Origin: a virus | Virus record (IMG/VR): IMGVR_UViG_3300031703_000599 | Location: 1-64,000 of that record | Strand: one strand, 5' to 3' | Length of the DNA: 64,000 nucleotides | Part shown: in pieces, positions 12,323-44,345 of the stretch | Layout: each line of letters opens with the position of its first letter | How positions within the stretch are numbered: the stretch's first letter is position 1 | Program-made: the position numbers and the translations under genes | Notes under the pieces: model-generated | Told to the model about the DNA's origin: nothing | Databases searched by the model: none | Seen by the model: the letters and a program-made list of their open reading frames with translations, nothing else

Positions 12323-13773
12323 TATTCTAATCCTATTCCGTTGTTGTCCATTGCACTAAGTATAACATTTGCAGGACACATCAAGTCGTTGTCATTTAAA
12401 TCAGTGCCGCTAAACCAGCTATTGCTGTCTGTGTCTTTGATTCGGTCGATTAAATTCATAAAGCTCTTTTCCATTGCAAATGGCTTAGCCATCAGTTTTG
12501 GTATAATGTAACTATATATGTTACTGCTCCAGAATAATGTACGCTTGTTTGCCATTTGGTCAAACATTTCATCATGATTATAAATTAAGTCAATTGTATG
12601 ATACTGGTGGCTAGCCTGCTGTACACGTTTCCAAAACTTTAACCATTCAACTGTACCGTCAAACTGGTCTATTACTTTTGGCCAACGTTCTGCCACTAAA
12701 GGAAGAATTCTTTTATTTACATCTGGGTTATCTTCTATCCATAAATCTACCCATGCTACAAAGTCATTACCGTCCCAGTTCTCAATTGTATCCTGTCTAA
12801 ACTTCACACTGTCAGGGTCAAAATCAAACCATATAAACTGTGTATCATTTGTCATACCGTACTTGTAAGCATAGTACAGAAGCTTAAATCCTGCTGTACA
12901 GCCTACATACTGGTCAAACACTGTGTTGAGTGCTTGTGTTGCAAGTTGCGGACTACTAGGTTCTGTGTTAACAAAGTACACAGGACTAGTTGGCGCAAAT
13001 ATACGATCTATAAGACGATTGCCCTGCAATGATACTACAGTGTCGTCATACGGTTGTCCAGTGATACCTTTTTCAAGTTCTGCTGCGCCAACATATGGCT
13101 TAGTGATATATACCTTATCCATTAGTTCGTTTGAGATACCCCATACTGTAAGGTCACGAACAAGACTATATTGAACCCATGTTGCTCCAAAATTCTTCTG
13201 CCATAGCATTGATGCATGCTGTCCATCTGCAAATTTCCAATCATGGCATACGTTTAATCTGTATATACTATCTTCGTGGTCACGACTGGGTTCTAGATTA
13301 GTCCAGTCTGGGTGGTGCTCTGGATGAAAGAATGGACTAGGTCGTTTATATGCATCCCATTTTTCTAAGTTTACAATTATAAATGTTCTTGAGAAATATG
13401 GATAGATACCATGTACCGCTTGTATTTGGCCTGCTAATATCCATTCTGGATCTTCTTTGTTGTACCTGTCTAACTCGTCTAGCATTAGAAGATTAAAATC
13501 AGTACTATCTGGCCAGCAACCCTCGAACCAAACCACTGCATATTTATATGCTAGTTTCTTCATTGACACTAGCCATGTCGTATCAAACGGATTATTAATG
13601 TTAACAATACCGCCACGTAAGTGATTGTTACACTCAACGTTTTGAATAATACCTAATTTTTGTTTCAATATTGGGGTGTCGTTAAACTCTTTGTCAAGTG
13701 GCATAAATGCATGTACGATAGGCCAGGCATTCCCTACGTGATCATATTCCCAACTTTTTTGACCTTGTATCAT
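12322..13773 (-). CDS. two-domain unknown enzyme; paralog of 10832-12322
   Basis: same shared motifs; IIVNLEKW resembles the GT8 strand. Confidence 0.7.
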   Translation of the reverse strand: MIQGQKSWEYDHVGNAWPIVHAFMPLDKEFNDTPILKQKLGIIQNVECNNHLRGGIVNINNPFDTTWLVSMKKLAYKYAVVWFEGCWPDSTDFNLLMLDELDRYNKEDPEWILAGQIQAVHGIYPYFSRTFIIVNLEKWDAYKRPSPFFHPEHHPDWTNLEPSRDHEDSIYRLNVCHDWKFADGQHASMLWQKNFGATWVQYSLVRDLTVWGISNELMDKVYITKPYVGAAELEKGITGQPYDDTVVSLQGNRLIDRIFAPTSPVYFVNTEPSSPQLATQALNTVFDQYVGCTAGFKLLYYAYKYGMTNDTQFIWFDFDPDSVKFRQDTIENWDGNDFVAWVDLWIEDNPDVNKRILPLVAERWPKVIDQFDGTVEWLKFWKRVQQASHQYHTIDLIYNHDEMFDQMANKRTLFWSSNIYSYIIPKLMAKPFAMEKSFMNLIDRIKDTDSNSWFSGTDLNDNDLMCPANVILSAMDNNGIGLE

Positions 13774-13785
13774 TGTTTATTCCTC

Positions 13786-14502
13786 CTATGCGTCTATGTT
13801 TAAATTAGTTAAAATATAATTTTTTGGGTCATCTCTGTCGTATGAGTTAGTATGATAATCATGACCTGTAATCATAGGATGTTCTCTAATATTCATATCT
13901 GGATTAGGATATCCACAACCTAACAACAATGCAACGCTGTCCTGTTTATTATAAGTAATACCATGAACTTCTAGCATGTGTGCTTTTACTATTTTTCCAA
14001 CTTCATCGCGATCAAAACATAAGCAGTTACCTGTACGTAGTCCAAGTCTGTTAGCTTCGTATCCCATCATTCCCATTGATGAACCTACTCCAGTAAACGT
14101 GTTTAATTCTTCGTCTTTATGTAGTTCAGCGTTAGTCAATGTGTAATATGGTTCGTCTGGTTCACGTGGTGTTGGTTTAGATAGTTTTACCCATGCAAAC
14201 AACACTGGTGCCAACACTTGTGCGTTGCCAACTAATGTAACTGGTGTACCATCGTTGTATATTTTCTGTTCTCTGAGCTCTGGATCTTCGCCTGGGCGAG
14301 CTGAGTTCATCCATATTGCTTTTGATAACTCTGGGCTCTGTATTGCTACTAAGTCAAAATATCGTCTACCTTGCTTAAATGGGCCACCTGTTCCAATGTC
14401 CAATAAGTGTTGTACTAGTTCTGCTGGTACTGGTGTATCAGCATAGTTTCTTGCAGTAATTTTAAACTTGGCTGCTGCGTCAAGTGATTCTTGATAATTC
14501 AC
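13786..14502 (-). CDS. nitroreductase-family flavoprotein
   Basis: TARNY..TPVP..L..LL...GPFKQG; LGLRTGNC; LLLGCGYP. Confidence 0.8.
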   Translation of the reverse strand: MNYQESLDAAAKFKITARNYADTPVPAELVQHLLDIGTGGPFKQGRRYFDLVAIQSPELSKAIWMNSARPGEDPELREQKIYNDGTPVTLVGNAQVLAPVLFAWVKLSKPTPREPDEPYYTLTNAELHKDEELNTFTGVGSSMGMMGYEANRLGLRTGNCLCFDRDEVGKIVKAHMLEVHGITYNKQDSVALLLGCGYPNPDMNIREHPMITGHDYHTNSYDRDDPKNYILTNLNIDA

Positions 14503-36419: not shown

Positions 36420-37193
36420 TTATTTAGTGCTATTTATAATATTTGGTTCTACTTCAAAATATTTGTTCACTTCAAATTCATCGTTTAAATCATCTGGCGC
36501 ATAACCTCTTGGATTACACAACACTCGTGTTTGATCAACAACATAATCGCTACTGTTATGCATGTGACCATGAACCCAGAATGATGGCTTAAATGTCATC
36601 ATAAACGCGGTTCTATCGCTGTAATATGACGCATTCAATAGTTGCCCTTTGAAACATTCATGACTTGAATTCTCATGTGGCGCATGGTGAGTAATAACTA
36701 CATCACCTTCTTTCACATTGTTATTCATATATGCCATTGTTCTCATATGCTCGTATGCGGCATCAGTAGGTCTAAATTTACGAAAATCTGGACCCATACG
36801 GATATACTTGTGGTCACTCATCTTCTGGCTAGCATCCCACATTGCTAATGGTTGATTACCAGATGATTGATAATCAGTCCACAATGTAGCGCCGTGAAAC
36901 ACAACACCTTTGATCTTGCGCCACTCGTTCTGTAACACATGGACATTCTCATACACATCTTCTTTAATATGTTTTAATGTGTTTTCAATATGCCCACGAT
37001 AGAATTCATGGTTGCCTTGAATCAATATAACATCTTCATACCGCAATGCCATTTCGTTGACCCAATCAATTCGGTGCTTCACGTTAATGTCGCCAGCAAG
37101 AATCAATACATCTGCTTCAACAGTTGGTTCTTCAGTCATACGACCAAACTCCAAGTGTAGGTCAGACATGTATAGACACTTTACTTTGCTCAT
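36420..37193 (-). CDS. calcineurin-like metallophosphoesterase
   Basis: SDLHLE, LAGDI, GNHE, THHAP, HGHMH. Confidence 0.92.
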   Translation of the reverse strand: MSKVKCLYMSDLHLEFGRMTEEPTVEADVLILAGDINVKHRIDWVNEMALRYEDVILIQGNHEFYRGHIENTLKHIKEDVYENVHVLQNEWRKIKGVVFHGATLWTDYQSSGNQPLAMWDASQKMSDHKYIRMGPDFRKFRPTDAAYEHMRTMAYMNNNVKEGDVVITHHAPHENSSHECFKGQLLNASYYSDRTAFMMTFKPSFWVHGHMHNSSDYVVDQTRVLCNPRGYAPDDLNDEFEVNKYFEVEPNIINSTK

Positions 37194-39278: not shown

Positions 39279-39896
39279 ATGAAGTTTTTAAAATCAATCA
39301 AATCAAAATTTGTGCTGTGGCTAATGTCAACTACATTGTACAAGTATCTATTATTTCACGTTATACCTTATATAAGATTCACAACATATTACACATCCAT
39401 GCGAGGCAGAACGTATCACAAATTATACAAGGCAGTTAAGCCAGGACATATCCTATTAACAAACGATAGTAAAAAACTAACAACTCTTTTAATAGGCGGC
39501 GAGTTTTCACACGCTGCATATGTAGTATCAAAGGATGGAGATTGGGAAGTATCAGAAATGACCCACAACAATTACACTAAAAGTACTGTTGCAGATTTGT
39601 GCTTTGAGGCTGATCGCGTTGTTGTGCTTGAATGTACTACATTTGATGCAGCATACACTAAGAAGACTATTGCTAAGTGCAAGTCGTTTGAAGGTGTTGC
39701 ATATGATGTTCAATTTGAATTGGGATTGGAAGCATTGTCATGTGCAGAAATGGTATACGAAGCAGATTTTGAAAGGCGCTTAGATGTAAACCTAGAAGAC
39801 GTTATAGGAATAGGCCAATTGTATATTTCACCAACTGGCCTATATAATTCCAAGAATGTCAAAGTGATATTTGACACAGCTAATGTTAGCAACTAA
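39279..39896 (+). CDS. permuted papain-like (YiiX/YebB, NlpC/P60) cysteine hydrolase
   Basis: GHILL, FSHAA, YD...LSCAEMV; RBS GGAGG; ATAAATA at 39250-39256. Confidence 0.8.
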   Translation: MKFLKSIKSKFVLWLMSTTLYKYLLFHVIPYIRFTTYYTSMRGRTYHKLYKAVKPGHILLTNDSKKLTTLLIGGEFSHAAYVVSKDGDWEVSEMTHNNYTKSTVADLCFEADRVVVLECTTFDAAYTKKTIAKCKSFEGVAYDVQFELGLEALSCAEMVYEADFERRLDVNLEDVIGIGQLYISPTGLYNSKNVKVIFDTANVSN

Positions 39897-39906
39897 CATA
39901 GTGAAT

Positions 39907-39979
39907 TTATCTCGATAGGAGTTGAACCTATGTACACAAGCCATACCCTGTGATCTAGCACTATATTGCTACGAGATAA
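39907..39979 (-). ncRNA. tRNA-like RNA A (no canonical anticodon loop, no encoded CCA)
   Basis: acceptor TTATCTCG/CGAGATAA, D-arm, T-arm ATAGG-TTCAACT-CCTAT, aberrant anticodon arm CACAGG-GTATGG-CTTGTG. Confidence 0.65.
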
Positions 39980-39982
39980 AAC

Positions 39983-40057
39983 TGGAGCGGGTGGACGGAA
40001 TCGAACCGACATCTAAAGGTTGGAAACCTCCAGTAATAACCATTATACTACACCCGC
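39983..40057 (-). tRNA. tRNA-Gly(TCC)
   Basis: GCGGGTG acceptor, TCC anticodon, GGTTCGATTCC T-arm, encoded CCA. Confidence 0.93.
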
Positions 40058-40065
40058 AAAACTAA

Positions 40066-40166
40066 TTTGACCCTTAACAGTTGCTCCATCTGAGAAGATG
40101 TTTTATCGGTTCTACCAGCAACTTAATATTAAGTGAGTTGTCTCGGTTACTCTCACAAGGGTCAAA
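40066..40166 (-). ncRNA. unknown structured RNA (~100 nt)
   Basis: 10-bp terminal stem TTTGACCCTT/AAGGGTCAAA enclosing GTGAG/CTCAC and AGTTGCT/AGCAACT helices; strand inferred from the array. Confidence 0.6.
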
Positions 40167-40170
40167 ACTT

Positions 40171-40243
40171 TGGTGTTCGATGAAGATTTAATTCTCCGTT
40201 TCTGACTTATCAGTGTCAGCGTTCTCTCTTGAACTATTCGAAC
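40171..40243 (-). tRNA. atypical tRNA-Ile(GAT)-like gene with 8-nt anticodon loop and degenerate T-loop
   Basis: GTTCGA/TCGAAC-ACCA, D-arm GTTC/GAAC, CTGAC-ACTGATAA-GTCAG. Confidence 0.6.
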
Positions 40244-40251
40244 AAAACTAA

Positions 40252-40356
40252 TTATCTCGGTAGGATTCTAACCTACATGCATGAAAACATCATCAGCGTA
40301 GCCCGGTCAATGGGGTGGCTGGATTTCACTGCTTTAACCTTTAAGCAACGAGATAA
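40252..40356 (-). ncRNA. tRNA-like RNA B with expanded (~37 nt) anticodon loop
   Basis: same acceptor stem as RNA A; D-arm GCTT/AAGC; GTGAAA/TTTCAT stem; T-arm GTAGG-TTAGAAT-CCTAC. Confidence 0.65.
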
Positions 40357-40358
40357 AC

Positions 40359-40444
40359 TGGCGGAAAACTAAGGAATCGAACCTTAACCCTTTCGAGTCC
40401 ACGCGGTTAGCAACCGGCCCTAGATCCAATCTAGATAATCTTCC
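40359..40444 (-). tRNA. tRNA-Ser(GCT)
   Basis: GCT anticodon, long variable arm, GGTTCGATTCC, encoded CCA. Confidence 0.9.
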
Positions 40445-40449
40445 AAACG

Positions 40450-40652
40450 TGGTCCCGCACCGCCCTTTCAAAGCGACTTAACTATGACAGGTTTACTAGG
40501 TTTATACTAACGATCAACTGGTTAGGAATACGCTTCATATCATTGGGCGATTCTGATCTGTGTTCATTGAGCGACCAAGCACAACTACTAACTTCACTAT
40601 CTACCCATCCCTAGCATTTACCAGAGAGATCATACTCAAGTGGTCATGCGAG
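40450..40652 (-). ncRNA. unknown ~200-nt RNA with acceptor-like stem and 3' ACCA
   Basis: CTCGCA/TGCGGG-ACCA termini, hairpin at T-arm position, ATGAC/GTCAT closing a large internal domain. Confidence 0.55.
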
Positions 40653-40659
40653 TTAAAAA

Positions 40660-40735
40660 TGGCTCCTGAAGTTGGGCTCGAACCAACGACAAATAGATTA
40701 ACAGTCTACTACTCTACCAACTGAGCTATTCAGGA
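40660..40735 (-). tRNA. tRNA-Asn(GTT)
   Basis: TCCTGAA acceptor, CTGTTAA loop, GGTTCGAGCCC, encoded CCA. Confidence 0.95.
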
Positions 40736-40747
40736 ATTAAACTTCAC

Positions 40748-40892
40748 TTTCAACTATGCTGGGTAGTATAGTCTACTTACAAACGTGACTAACCATTTGC
40801 ATTGGTAGACTAGGGACTATGTAATGTCCTAAAGCATTCAACGAGTGTCACTCGCTTACTGGCTTAAGGAATCGTCCCAGCATATGTGAAAA
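40748..40892 (-). ncRNA. unknown multi-helix structured RNA (~145 nt)
   Basis: closing stem TATGCTGGG/CCCAGCATA with internal TAGTCTAC/GTAGACTA, GGAC/GTCC and CGAGT/ACTCG helices. Confidence 0.55.
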
Positions 40893-40913
40893 TAAAGTTT
40901 TACGATAAGGGTG

Positions 40914-41102
40914 TTAAGCCTTAAAGTTGTACTCTGTATAAAGGATATCTAAGATATCGTCTATAGTATCTCTATCTGTTGCTAAAATGTTTTGAGGAGT
41001 TGCGTTGATAACTTCCTTAATAGCAGCAATTTGTGTATAACGATCTGCGTCTTGTGATGTAGTTTGCGAAACAGTTTTAGCGAATTGCGATAGAGTATAC
41101 AT
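40914..41102 (-). CDS. hypothetical phage protein
   Basis: 62-aa ORF after promoter 41138-41166. Confidence 0.6.
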   Translation of the reverse strand: MYTLSQFAKTVSQTTSQDADRYTQIAAIKEVINATPQNILATDRDTIDDILDILYTEYNFKA

Positions 41103-43326: not shown

Positions 43327-43650
43327 TTATAGTTTAAATTCTAATCCAAAAACAACGCCAATATTATTACGTTCCAGTGCTGGTGCAACGAAGTAATTCT
43401 TGTATGTTATTCGTGTGTATGGGATAACGTCTGCAACTGTATAGCCGCCTGCTAATGCAAGTTCAAACCCCCAGTCGCCGTATTCGTGCCGATAGCCAGT
43501 GTATGGGCTTATACGTTCTTCACTGTTGTAGTATAGGCCAGTGATGTAATTATCCTGTGTGTAGCGAATGTGTGGATGAAGTTCATTGTATTCGCTTGCA
43601 AGTCCAAGGTGTAGACTTACTCCTAATGTTAGTACAAGTGCTCCGTTCAA
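43327..43650 (-). CDS. small beta-barrel outer-membrane-like protein (PagP-like pattern)
   Basis: amphipathic aromatic strands, YNELHP, YYNS..R.S.Y.GY, ends FGLEFKL. Confidence 0.55.
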   Translation of the reverse strand: MNGALVLTLGVSLHLGLASEYNELHPHIRYTQDNYITGLYYNSEERISPYTGYRHEYGDWGFELALAGGYTVADVIPYTRITYKNYFVAPALERNNIGVVFGLEFKL

Positions 43651-44345
43651 CTGTTAGGCGTGCCAGTCTTGTTATCTTGCAGCCATTTAATAGCAAATCT
43701 ATTAGTAGGTGGACTAGTTATAAATGCACGTATTAATTTTTCCACGTTATCAAAGTTTTGCTTGCGAGCAGGGTCTTCTAAGCCGCCGCTGTTGTCCACG
43801 ATATGGAAGTTGCTGGCGCCAAATACTTGTTGAAATTTCATGATATTGCTCTGCACCGCGTTCCACATTTTAGAAACCATTTCAGTTGGGAGCTTTCTAG
43901 GACGTTGTAAGTTACGTGCTTGTGCAACTTCAAGGTCAGTATTAACAAATAACATCATTGTACTGTAGCCTAGTTTTCTTAGATCATCAGATGCTTTTTT
44001 TACTTTGTCTGTATTCTTGCCTGTGCCATCAATTATAATACCTAGTCGGCCACTAAGGTATGCGTTCTCACGATGAGATGTAAGTTTTTTTGCACGGTCT
44101 CTAATTTCTTGGCCTTCTGGACTTGCAACAGCATCAGGGTCGCCTAAATCCAATTCTTGTTTATGCGCCATGTATTCATATATGTCATCACTGTTAATGG
44201 CTTTCAATCCATACCCAGATAATAGTCCTTTTGATACATAGCTTTTGCCGCTGCCTGGGCCGCCAGCTAGGAAGACTGCTTTAAATATGTGCTTATCATG
44301 TGGTCCTTCTGCTAAATTCTGTTCTGTGATTTGATGTATTTTCAT
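43647..44345 (-). CDS. zeta-toxin-like P-loop kinase
   Basis: FLAGGPGSGKS, INSD, IIDGTG, AQARN..R.R. Confidence 0.8.
   Translation of the reverse strand: MKIHQITEQNLAEGPHDKHIFKAVFLAGGPGSGKSYVSKGLLSGYGLKAINSDDIYEYMAHKQELDLGDPDAVASPEGQEIRDRAKKLTSHRENAYLSGRLGIIIDGTGKNTDKVKKASDDLRKLGYSTMMLFVNTDLEVAQARNLQRPRKLPTEMVSKMWNAVQSNIMKFQQVFGASNFHIVDNSGGLEDPARKQNFDNVEKLIRAFITSPPTNRFAIKWLQDNKTGTPNS

What the first reader, a model, noticed from the sequence alone, without database searches (positions are those of the whole stretch)
39907..40892. tRNA array interleaved with six non-canonical structured RNAs
Seen: about 1 kb without ORFs in which nine self-contained folded units lie head to tail, separated by short spacers of about 2-12 nt. 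Only three are canonical tRNAs (Gly, Ser, Asn). The others are tRNA-like or multi-helix RNAs, each closed by a terminal stem. Established: polycistronic tRNA transcripts are cut by RNase P and 3' nucleases, and T4 releases two stable non-tRNA RNAs from its tRNA cluster. Inference: the phage uses tRNA punctuation to release a set of novel ncRNAs, for example decoys for anticodon nucleases or ligands of phage proteins.
Basis: partly seen in the sequence, partly recalled or inferred. Interest (0 to 1): 0.75.

Follow-up and report, generated by a model that had tools for sequence, protein, structure and literature searches.

The report
Phage tRNA operon with tRNA look-alikes
This 1-kb stretch of an uncultured marine jumbo phage is a minus-strand tRNA operon in which two normal tRNAs and one oddly built but known type of serine tRNA sit among three tRNA-shaped RNAs that cannot read codons normally and three other folded RNAs; the arrangement is a known kind, and the odd RNAs have no detectable relatives, so their job stays open.

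Summary

- **Canonical tRNAs:** only Asn(GUU) and Gly(UCC).
- **The 'Ser' unit:** a non-canonical (8/4) tRNA-Ser(GCU), a class described from alpha-proteobacterial phage tRNA clusters. Covariation in 16 homologues confirms the 8/4 fold.
- **U5, U6, U9:** tRNA-derived cloverleaves with intact stems but abnormal anticodon arms. U6 has an 8-nt loop, U9 a 6- or 8-nt loop, and U5 a roughly 30-nt insertion.
- **U1, U3, U7:** not tRNAs. U1 is a very stable Y-shaped leader. U3 is about 200 nt, closed by a 7-bp acceptor-like stem next to a T-arm-like hairpin and ends in ACCA. U7 is a branched RNA closed by a 9-bp stem.

Seven of eight inner junctions carry a GUUU leader, and five units encode CCA, which fits common tRNA-type processing.

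No homologue of U1, U3, U5, U6, U7 or U9 was found in 54 related phage contigs or loci, or in the metagenome and genome scans. Function and selection therefore remain unproven, and the decoy idea is untested.

This scan has noted similar arrays before on other DNA (48 notes, at least 47 genomes). I file this one as a new member of a known kind, of moderate interest.

The parts
40889..40917 (-). Weak sigma-70-like promoter match (TTAACA, 17 nt, TATTTT) just upstream of U1. It would place the transcript start at about the 5' strand of the U1 closing stem.
   Evidence: 9 of 12 matches. The number of such sites in the region is not above shuffles (8 against 5.2 +/- 2.2), so this is only a candidate.
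40757..40884 (-). U1: a 128-nt non-tRNA RNA. It is Y-shaped, with a 9-bp closing stem and two long hairpins, and is probably the 5' leader of the operon.
   Evidence: MFE -49.1 kcal/mol, z = -6.4 against 300 dinucleotide shuffles. 98% of its pairing mass stays inside the unit in the whole-transcript ensemble. No Rfam match at E<=10. Model R1 finds no homologue.
40660..40735 (-). U2: canonical tRNA-Asn(GUU) with encoded CCA.
   Evidence: ARAGORN. Rfam RF00005 at 67.2 bits. 85.5% identical to the tRNA-Asn of related record G005.
40450..40652 (-). U3: a 203-nt RNA closed by a 7-bp acceptor-like stem (CUCGCAU/GUGCGGG). That stem lies next to a 5-6-bp T-arm-like hairpin and a 12-bp helix, and the 3' end is ACCA. 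The interior, about 165 nt, is weakly structured and variable between strains.
   Evidence: Closing-stem pair probability 0.89-1.0 when folded alone, but overall z = -0.2. The stem is not dominant in the full-transcript ensemble. No tmRNA, tRNA or other Rfam match and no tag-like ORF. Metagenome contigs skip or replace 40540-40608, and a near-identical strain lacks this unit. Model R3 finds no homologue.
40359..40444 (-). U4: a non-canonical (8/4) tRNA-Ser(GCU). It has an 8-bp acceptor stem, a 4-bp T stem, a long D stem, a long variable arm with a GAAA loop, G73 and encoded CCA.
   Evidence: Rfam tRNA-Sec 30.6 bits, below the gathering score. ARAGORN calls it only at a relaxed threshold. Twenty IMG/VR homologues were found. 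In alignment A6, pair 8:78 is formed in 16 of 16 sequences with 4 pair types, while the rival 7/5 pair 62:78 fails in 11 of 16.
40253..40355 (-). U5: a tRNA-like RNA with intact acceptor (7 bp plus U-1:A73), D and T arms. The anticodon arm is lengthened by about 30 nt, and no CCA is encoded.
   Evidence: RF00005 at 43.6 bits. ARAGORN with introns allowed reads it as 'tRNA-Ile(gat) with a 30-nt intron'. z = -2.4; 99% self-contained. One metagenome contig carries it with 2 mismatches and a 3-nt deletion while its flanks are unlike the window.
40171..40243 (-). U6: a tRNA-Ile(GAU)-derived cloverleaf with an 8-nt anticodon loop (ACUGAUAA), a 6-nt T loop (AUUAAA), a D loop without GG, A73 and encoded CCA.
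   Evidence: RF00005 at 32.9 bits with one inserted base in the anticodon loop. Missed by ARAGORN. z = -3.5. Its D arm resembles that of a phage tRNA-Ile(GAU).
40066..40166 (-). U7: a 101-nt non-tRNA branched RNA closed by a 9-10-bp stem (UUGACCCUU/AAGGGUCAA). No CCA is encoded, and it is followed by UUAGUUUU.
   Evidence: z = -3.0. Closing-stem probability 0.9 or more when folded alone, but its 5' strand is predicted to pair with 40383-40391 of U4 in the full transcript. No Rfam match. Model R2 finds no homologue.
39983..40057 (-). U8: canonical tRNA-Gly(UCC) with encoded CCA.
   Evidence: ARAGORN. RF00005 at 62 bits.
39907..39978 (-). U9: a tRNA-like cloverleaf with the same acceptor stem as U5 and a canonical UUCAACU T loop. 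The anticodon arm is 6 bp with a 6-nt loop, or 5 bp with an 8-nt loop GGUAUGGC. No CCA is encoded.
   Evidence: Fold and z = -3.2. 98% self-contained. ARAGORN calls it only at the 70% threshold. No RF00005 hit. Its 3' half matches phage tRNA-Gln(UUG) genes.

Best explanation
The stretch is one minus-strand tRNA operon of an uncultured marine jumbo phage. Relatives carry alpha-type permuted tmRNA, so the host is probably an alphaproteobacterium.

**What it encodes**
- Two standard tRNAs (Asn, Gly).
- One (8/4)-type tRNA-Ser(GCU) of a known irregular class.
- Three RNAs derived from tRNA genes: U6 from a tRNA-Ile(GAU), and U5 and U9 from a tRNA with a Gln-like acceptor and T arm. They keep the tRNA frame but have anticodon arms that cannot decode in the normal way.
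- Three non-tRNA folded RNAs: U1 as the stable 5' leader, U3 as a large insert held in an acceptor/T-type minihelix that ends in ACCA, and U7.

**How it most likely works (inferred)**
- The whole array is transcribed as one precursor.
- The host's tRNA-processing enzymes cut at every tRNA-like frame: RNase P at the U-rich GUUU leaders, and 3' trimming back to the encoded CCA. This would release all nine units as separate stable RNAs.
- The non-decoding units are young, lineage-specific modules that are kept foldable. They act, if at all, as tRNA mimics or stable small RNAs rather than as adaptors.

**Shown:** the units, their folds, the class of U4, the shared leaders and CCA ends, and the absence of relatives in what was searched.
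**Inferred:** co-transcription, the processing route, and any function.
For: - **Unit calls:**
- **U4 class:** covariation for the 8/4 fold. The same fold class hits Rfam tRNA-Sec at 33-50 bits in other phage arrays. The class is described in PMC5389517.
- **Stems intact while loops are remodelled:** U9 has 8/8 acceptor, 5/5 T and 6/6 anticodon-stem pairs. U6 has one mismatch in 21 pairs. U5 has all frame stems intact.
- **Paralogues U5 and U9:** their acceptor stems are identical. They differ by compensatory double changes in the first T-stem pair (G-C against A-U) and in D-stem pair 12:23 (U-A against A-U). Their T loops, D loops and anticodon arms differ (sequence read directly).
- **Folding:** z-scores of -2.4 to -6.4 for five of the six odd units.
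- **Leaders:** 7 of 11 GTTT words fall in the spacers before unit 5' ends. The spacer UUAGUUUU (preceded by A) occurs twice.
- **CCA:** encoded in five units, including U3 and U6.
- **U5 in another phage:** a U5 copy about 97% identical sits between unlike flanks in another marine metagenome.
- **Weak hint of transcription:** one metatranscriptome contig (151 nt, 2 mismatches) bridges U9, tRNA-Gly and the end of U7, while the flanking coding DNA has no cover in that run. DNA carry-over is not excluded.
Against: - No homologue of U1, U3, U5, U6, U7 or U9 was found in 34 related IMG/VR records, in 20 further phage tRNA-array loci, or in pattern scans of IMG/VR, JGI metagenomes and GTDB genomes. 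So there is no test of purifying selection beyond one pair of paralogues.
- U3 folds no better than shuffled sequence. Its interior is skipped or replaced in related strains.
- In the full-transcript ensemble four units are not self-contained.
- The promoter match is weak, and no terminator was detected.
- No data show processed ends.
Confidence: 0.55

Rival explanations
1. Decay and turnover. The odd units are dying tRNA genes and leftover spacer or insert DNA in a fast-changing array. They are transcribed passively and have no function of their own.
For: - No relatives were found for any of the six units.
- The array of the related record G005 is visibly in flux. It holds HNH endonuclease ORFs between tRNAs, tRNA 5' and 3' fragments, and odd tRNA-likes.
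- The U3 interior is not more stable than chance and differs between strains. A strain near-identical in U1, U4 and U5 lacks this U3 at 80% likeness or more.
- U6 has three deviant loops.
Against: - Random decay should break stems as often as loops. Here stems are nearly perfect while loops are remodelled.
- U5 and U9 differ by compensatory pairs.
- CCA and the GUUU leaders are retained.
- U1 is extremely stable (z = -6.4).
- U5 is about 97% conserved between unlike flanks.
- No HNH remnant is detectable in the array by tblastn.
Confidence: 0.28
2. Anti-defence decoys. The tRNA-shaped units soak up or mislead host tRNA-cutting defence nucleases, or other tRNA-binding proteins.
For: - Only indirect evidence. 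tRNA frames with altered anticodon loops are what a non-decoding mimic would look like.
- Phage tRNAs are known to counter anticodon nucleases (own knowledge, not checked here).
- A P-loop kinase of the zeta/AAA_33 type and a calcineurin-like phosphoesterase lie within 3 kb of the array.
Against: - No RNA ligase, RtcB or Ro60 gene is in the 98.6-kb fragment, which is only about 28% of the genome.
- The remodelled loops do not copy a known nuclease target.
- The units are not conserved in relatives.
Confidence: 0.1
3. Unusual decoding. U6 and U9, with 8-nt anticodon loops, and U5, after removal of its 30-nt insert, are working adaptors, for example for frameshifting, four-base codons or recoding.
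For: - U6 keeps A73-CCA and a U33-GAU-A37-like core.
- U6 and U9 both read N-N-U-NNN-R-N if taken as 8-nt loops (sequence read directly).
- ARAGORN can model U5 as tRNA-Ile with an intron.
- Irregular tRNAs can be active in translation (PMC5389517).
Against: - Bacteria have no known splicing route for a 30-nt tRNA intron (established knowledge). No group I intron match was found at E<=10.
- U6 lacks the D-loop GG and the T-loop consensus needed for the tRNA elbow.
- U5 and U9 lack an encoded CCA, unlike the real tRNAs here.
- No recoding signal was looked for or seen.
Confidence: 0.07

Closest known systems
(8/4) tRNA-Ser / allo-tRNA class and 'polycistrons of irregular tRNAs' (Mukai et al. 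2017, Nucleic Acids Res 45:2776, PMC5389517)
   Same: U4 has the defining fold: an 8-bp acceptor with a 4-bp T stem, a long D stem, a long V arm, G73 and a serine anticodon. It lies in a phage tRNA cluster, as the paper reports for alpha-proteobacterial phages. The paper also describes clusters of other irregular tRNAs, some of them charged but not used in translation.
   Different: U4 has a D loop one base shorter than its family, and two mismatches at the base of the anticodon stem (27:43 and 28:42). U5, U6 and U9 do not fit the 8/4 or 9/3 classes. The paper's irregular polycistrons come from soil Acidobacteria, not from marine phages.
Phage T4 stable RNAs C and D (species 1 and 2) in the T4 tRNA gene cluster
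   Same: They are non-tRNA stable RNAs encoded among tRNA genes, co-transcribed with them and released by the tRNA-processing machinery, with unknown function (own knowledge; the T4 review could not be fetched).
   Different: There is no sequence similarity. A blastn search of the array against 50,697 phage records found only tRNA matches. Here most of the extra units are themselves tRNA-shaped.
tmRNA tRNA-like domain (Rfam RF00023, RF01849, RF04321)
   Same: U3 has the same topology as the tmRNA tRNA-like domain: an acceptor stem, a long helix leaving the junction, a T-arm-position hairpin and a 3' ACCA. Relatives of this phage carry permuted tmRNA genes in or near their tRNA arrays.
   Different: No tmRNA model matches and ARAGORN finds none. 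There is no G3:U70, no T-loop consensus and no tag reading frame. At about 203 nt it is too short.
Large or tRNA-like ncRNAs that live in phage tRNA arrays: GOLLD, ROOL, YrlA (Y RNA-like)
   Same: The genomic habit is the same. [quoted passage not shown] One array found here (L075) holds a GOLLD RNA at 218 bits and sub-threshold YrlA-like matches.
   Different: None of U1, U3 or U7 matches these families at E<=10. No Ro60/TROVE gene is in the fragment.

Membership tests
Canonical tRNA (Rfam RF00005) | Score above the gathering threshold (29 bits) with the full cloverleaf | tested here: met
   U2 67.2, U8 62, U6 32.9 bits; U5 43.6 bits. U9, U1, U3 and U7 give no hit.
Canonical tRNA (Rfam RF00005) | 7-nt anticodon loop with U33 and a readable anticodon (applied to U5, U6, U9) | tested here: not met
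   U6 has an 8-nt loop; cmscan shows one inserted base. U9 has a 6- or 8-nt loop. U5 has about 30 extra nt in the arm.
Canonical tRNA (Rfam RF00005) | D-loop GG and T-loop UUCRA that build the elbow | tested here: inconclusive
   U9 has UUCAA in the T loop but no GG in the D loop. U5 has GG in the D loop but UUAGA in the T loop. U6 has neither (AAGAGA and AUUAAA). Read.
(8/4) tRNA-Ser / allo-tRNA (PMC5389517) | 12-bp acceptor branch split as an 8-bp acceptor stem plus a 4-bp T stem | tested here: met
   In alignment A6 (16 sequences), pair 8:78 is formed in 16 of 16 (AU 7, GC 7, CG 1, UA 1). The rival fifth T pair 62:78 is unpaired in 11 of 16, and 49:62 pairs in 16 of 16. U4 has U8-A.
(8/4) tRNA-Ser / allo-tRNA (PMC5389517) | Long D stem with a tetraloop, as in tRNA-Sec | tested here: inconclusive
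   The family shows a 6-bp D stem with covariation in all 6 pairs and a 4-nt loop. U4 itself is one base shorter, giving 5 bp with a 5-nt loop or 6 bp with a 3-nt loop.
(8/4) tRNA-Ser / allo-tRNA (PMC5389517) | Long variable arm and G73 (SerRS identity), with a serine anticodon | tested here: met
   The V stem is 5 bp, paired in 100% of cells, with a GAAA loop. U4 has G73 followed by CCA, and anticodon GCU.
(8/4) tRNA-Ser / allo-tRNA (PMC5389517) | Charged with serine by SerRS | not testable with these tools
   Needs an aminoacylation assay.
tmRNA (for U3) | Match to tmRNA covariance models or ARAGORN; G3:U70; tag reading frame | tested here: not met
   No hit at E<=10 in the region. RF04321 reaches at best 8.3 bits elsewhere in G000. 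ARAGORN finds none. Pair 3:70 is C-G. No tag-like ORF.
Y RNA / YrlA with Ro60 (for U1, U3, U7) | Match to RF02553 and a TROVE/Ro60 gene in the genome | tested here: not met
   No YrlA hit at E<=10. PF05731 is absent from the 98.6-kb fragment. The fragment is only about 28% of the genome, so absence of the protein is not proven.
tRNA gene interrupted by a group I intron (for U5, U3) | Intron with a group I core in the anticodon loop | tested here: not met
   No Intron_gpI match at E<=10. The inserts, about 30 nt and about 130-165 nt, are shorter than known group I introns (established knowledge).
T4 RNA C / RNA D | Sequence similarity to the T4 genes | tested here: not met
   A blastn 'distant' search of the whole array against 50,697 phage records gave matches only over tRNA-Asn, which covers 8-10% of the query.
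T4 RNA C / RNA D | Stable, processed non-tRNA RNA released from a tRNA precursor | not testable with these tools
   Needs RNA end mapping. There is only one bridging metatranscriptome contig.

The most novel reading that the evidence does not exclude
U3, and perhaps U6, is a new kind of CCA-ended RNA that can be charged or bound by tRNA-recognising proteins. It would be a tRNA-type acceptor/T minihelix carrying a swappable cargo domain of about 165 nt. The whole array would then be a cassette system in which phages shuffle tRNA-framed modules to meet host tRNA-directed defences or to reprogramme translation.
Probability: 0.08. Interest if true: 0.8.

Novelty: new member of a known kind. Interest (0 to 1): 0.35.

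Why it matters
Phage tRNA arrays are usually annotated by tRNA finders alone. In this array that would miss seven of nine units, including a working-class (8/4) serine tRNA.

The array adds a marine example to a growing set of phage operons that mix real tRNAs with tRNA-shaped and tRNA-framed RNAs of unknown role. If the framed RNAs prove stable and conserved, they would point to a general phage strategy of using the host's tRNA-processing machinery to make small RNAs.

As it stands the case is descriptive. The units are lineage-specific and no function is shown.

Tried and rejected
I could not fetch contigs around the 288 homologues of the flanking Peptidase_C92 protein.

**Homologue hunts that found nothing useful**
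- Loci around flank proteins: searches found none or no array. Searches gave relatives whose arrays share only Asn and Gly.
- BLAST and nhmmer of each unit against all loci.
- Pattern scans with the U5/U9 3' half in IMG/VR and JGI metagenomes hit only phage tRNA-Gln genes.
- The U3 3'-end pattern found nothing in IMG/VR or GTDB genomes, nor did a U5 insert word in GTDB genomes.
- Single-sequence covariance models R1 (U1), R2 (U7) and R3 (U3) gave no hit at E<=1 in 34 records, or at E<=5 in 25 loci. Single-sequence models are weak, so this does not prove absence.

**Readings rejected**
- HNH-endonuclease remnants in the array: tblastn gave nothing below E 0.2.
- tmRNA, Y RNA, GOLLD/ROOL and group I intron readings.

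**Checks that gave nothing**
- Antisense targets in the phage genome gave only one marginal 16-nt match.
- RNA-repair context: no RNA ligase or RtcB.
- Metatranscriptome run X24 held 7% of the sampled words. Apart from one bridging contig, its cover is tRNA-Asn and tRNA-Gly of other organisms. It says nothing about ends or levels.
- The T4 genome review could not be read.
Full report
**Where the window comes from.** The window is the first 64 kb of a 98.6-kb IMG/VR virus record that CheckV rates about 28% complete, which points to a jumbo phage. No cultured phage is close: the best protein matches are around 25-28% identity. Near-identical DNA occurs in many marine metagenomes. Relatives found through a neighbouring P-loop kinase (60-63% identity) carry permuted, alpha-type tmRNA genes in or near their tRNA arrays. 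This suggests an alphaproteobacterial host. That is an inference.

**The observation.**
- All features lie on the minus strand, like most genes around them.
- Reading 40884 down to 39907 there are nine units. Spacers are 21, 7, 5, 3, 9, 4, 8 and 4 nt.
- The region has no ORF above 54 aa, and the short ones overlap tRNAs.
- ARAGORN calls only tRNA-Asn(GUU) at 40660-40735 and tRNA-Gly(UCC) at 39983-40057.
- Rfam adds a weak tRNA at 40174-40243 (32.9 bits). A more permissive run adds 40252-40355 at 43.6 bits and a sub-threshold tRNA-Sec match at 40363-40444.
- Folded alone, each unit closes with a terminal stem at pair probability 0.86 or more.
- Five of the six odd units fold better than dinucleotide shuffles: U1 z = -6.4, U6 -3.5, U9 -3.2, U7 -3.0, U5 -2.4. 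U3 does not (-0.2).
- In the ensemble of the whole 1-kb transcript, U1, U2, U5, U8 and U9 remain self-contained. U3, U4, U6 and U7 have competing long-range pairings. The clearest is the U7 5' strand with 40383-40391 of U4.

**U4 is a known irregular tRNA.**
- A pattern built from its anticodon loop, GAAA variable-arm loop and T loop found 20 IMG/VR loci.
- Sixteen distinct sequences align well (A6).
- With an 8-bp acceptor and 4-bp T stem, 89% of cells pair and 24 of 28 pairs show double changes.
- The diagnostic pair 8:78 is formed in 16 of 16 sequences with four pair types. The fifth T-stem pair of the ordinary 7/5 fold (62:78) fails in 11 of 16.
- This is the (8/4) tRNA-Ser of Mukai et al. 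2017 (PMC5389517). They found it in tRNA clusters of alpha-proteobacterial phages and showed that related allo-tRNAs work in E. coli.
- In the six of these loci scanned with Rfam, tRNA-Sec-model matches score 33-50 bits, five of them on the U4 homologues; U4 itself scores 30.6.

**U5, U6 and U9 are tRNA derivatives that cannot decode normally.**
- U6 has intact stems, with one A.A mismatch at 7:66, plus A73 and CCA. Its anticodon loop has 8 nt (ACUGAUAA), its T loop 6 nt, and its D loop lacks GG. Its D arm resembles that of a phage tRNA-Ile(GAU).
- U5 and U9 share an identical acceptor stem (UAUCUCG/CGAGAUA, with U-1 able to pair with A73). Their 3' half also occurs in phage tRNA-Gln(UUG) genes, which were the only things the pattern scans found.
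- The U9 anticodon arm is 6 bp with a 6-nt loop. The U5 arm carries about 30 extra nt, which ARAGORN can only model as an intron. No bacterial route would splice such an intron.
- Between the two paralogues, the first T-stem pair (G-C against A-U) and D-stem pair 12:23 (U-A against A-U) differ by compensatory double changes, while the loops differ freely. This is a small but direct sign that the frame is maintained.

**U1, U3 and U7 are not tRNAs and match no Rfam family at E<=10.**
- U1 follows a weak promoter-like site and is probably the transcript's 5' leader.
- U3 is closed by a 7-bp stem that abuts a T-arm-position hairpin and a 12-bp helix, and it ends in ACCA. This is the topology of the tmRNA tRNA-like domain.
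- However, no tmRNA model, G3:U70 pair or tag frame is present in U3.
- Contigs from other marine runs skip or replace 40540-40608. A strain near-identical in U1, U4 and U5 has no U3 at 80% likeness or more. The interior therefore behaves as a variable cassette.

**Signs of common processing.**
- Seven of the 11 GTTT words in the region lie in the short spacers just before unit 5' ends. This holds for all inner junctions except Asn to U3, which has UUUUUAA.
- The spacer UUAGUUUU, preceded by A, follows both U5 and U7.
- CCA is encoded after U2, U3, U4, U6 and U8, but not after U1, U5, U7 or U9.
- A U-rich leader and an acceptor/T coaxial helix are what bacterial RNase P prefers (established knowledge). 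That RNase P cuts here is inferred.
- One 151-nt metatranscriptome contig with 2 mismatches bridges U9, tRNA-Gly and the end of U7, while the flanking coding DNA is uncovered in that run. This is only a weak hint of transcription.

**Conservation.** This is the weak point.
- Thirty-four related IMG/VR records, 20 further array loci and pattern scans of three collections gave no homologue of U1, U3, U5, U6, U7 or U9.
- The related array in G005 shares only tRNA-Asn. It is full of HNH endonuclease ORFs, tRNA fragments and its own odd tRNA-likes.
- The only outside copies seen are in unassembled Logan contigs: U5 at about 97%, U4 at about 83% and the U3 3' half at about 91%, each next to unlike flanks. 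I could not fetch these.

**Reading.** The best-supported picture is a tRNA operon built from shuffling modules. Besides working tRNAs, it carries young tRNA-derived and tRNA-framed RNAs that are kept foldable and are probably released by the tRNA-processing machinery. Passive decay is the main rival. The nearly perfect stems, the compensatory pairs, the retained CCA and leaders, and the extreme stability of U1 argue against it. The lack of relatives and the unstable, variable U3 interior argue for it. Nothing here tests the decoy idea.

**Comparison and verdict.**
- The closest known systems are the irregular tRNA clusters of Mukai et al. and the T4 stable RNAs C and D.
- Also close are the habit of GOLLD, ROOL and YrlA RNAs of living in phage tRNA arrays and the tmRNA tRNA-like domain for U3.
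- This scan has already noted similar arrays on other DNA (48 notes in at least 47 genomes).
- I rate this a new member of a known kind, interest 0.35.

Noticed in passing
L035:3187-3453 (-), L037:3845-4001 (+), L009/L010:20323-20738 (+): Related phage records carry permuted (alpha-proteobacterial type) tmRNA genes in or beside their tRNA arrays. Rfam tmRNA_permuted scores up to 113.9 bits, and the tag peptides end in ALAA. The window's own 98.6-kb fragment has none.
   Followed up: partly
L075:8137-8588 (+); L075:12825-12934 and 13675-13820 (+): The phage contig with the (8/4) tRNA-Ser closest to U4 holds a GOLLD RNA (218 bits, with an embedded tRNA) inside its tRNA array. It also has two sub-threshold YrlA-like matches (43.5 and 37.4 bits; the gathering score is 69).
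   Followed up: no
window 40582-40597 (-) against G000:C1:73478-73493 (outside the window): Sixteen bases of the U3 interior are perfectly complementary to the mRNA of a minus-strand 237-aa PP-loop (QueC-like) ORF. The E-value is about 0.004 for one query and nine queries were run, so this may be chance.
   Followed up: partly
L033:1213-1719 (-), L033:1984-2388 (-), L033:2430-2455, 1760-1810, 1100-1130: The tRNA array of relative G005 holds two HNH-type endonuclease ORFs between tRNAs, plus isolated 5' and 3' tRNA fragments beside them. This looks like homing-endonuclease-driven turnover of the array.
   Followed up: partly
window 43647-44345 (-) and 36420-37193 (-): A P-loop kinase of the zeta-toxin/AAA_33 type (it also hits a PHROG named polynucleotide kinase) and a calcineurin-like phosphoesterase lie within 3 kb on either side of the array. 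This could be an RNA-end-healing pair, but no ligase was found in the fragment.
   Followed up: partly
window 39279-39896 (+): The convergent neighbour is a Peptidase_C92 (YaeF/YiiX-type permuted papain-like amidase). It has 288 homologues in metagenomes and is widespread in large marine phage contigs. Its position next to the tRNA array is not conserved.
   Followed up: partly
window 40158-40166 (-) with 40383-40391 (-): The 5' strand of the U7 closing stem is also complementary to the variable-arm/T-arm junction of U4. In the full-transcript ensemble this long-range helix is predicted at probability 0.69-1.0. It may be a folding artefact or a precursor-level interaction.
   Followed up: no
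L073-L092: ARAGORN at default settings misses the (8/4) tRNA-Ser(GCU) in about two thirds of the 16 arrays checked, L073, L075, L076, L078 and L079 among them. Such phage arrays are therefore systematically under-annotated.
   Followed up: partly
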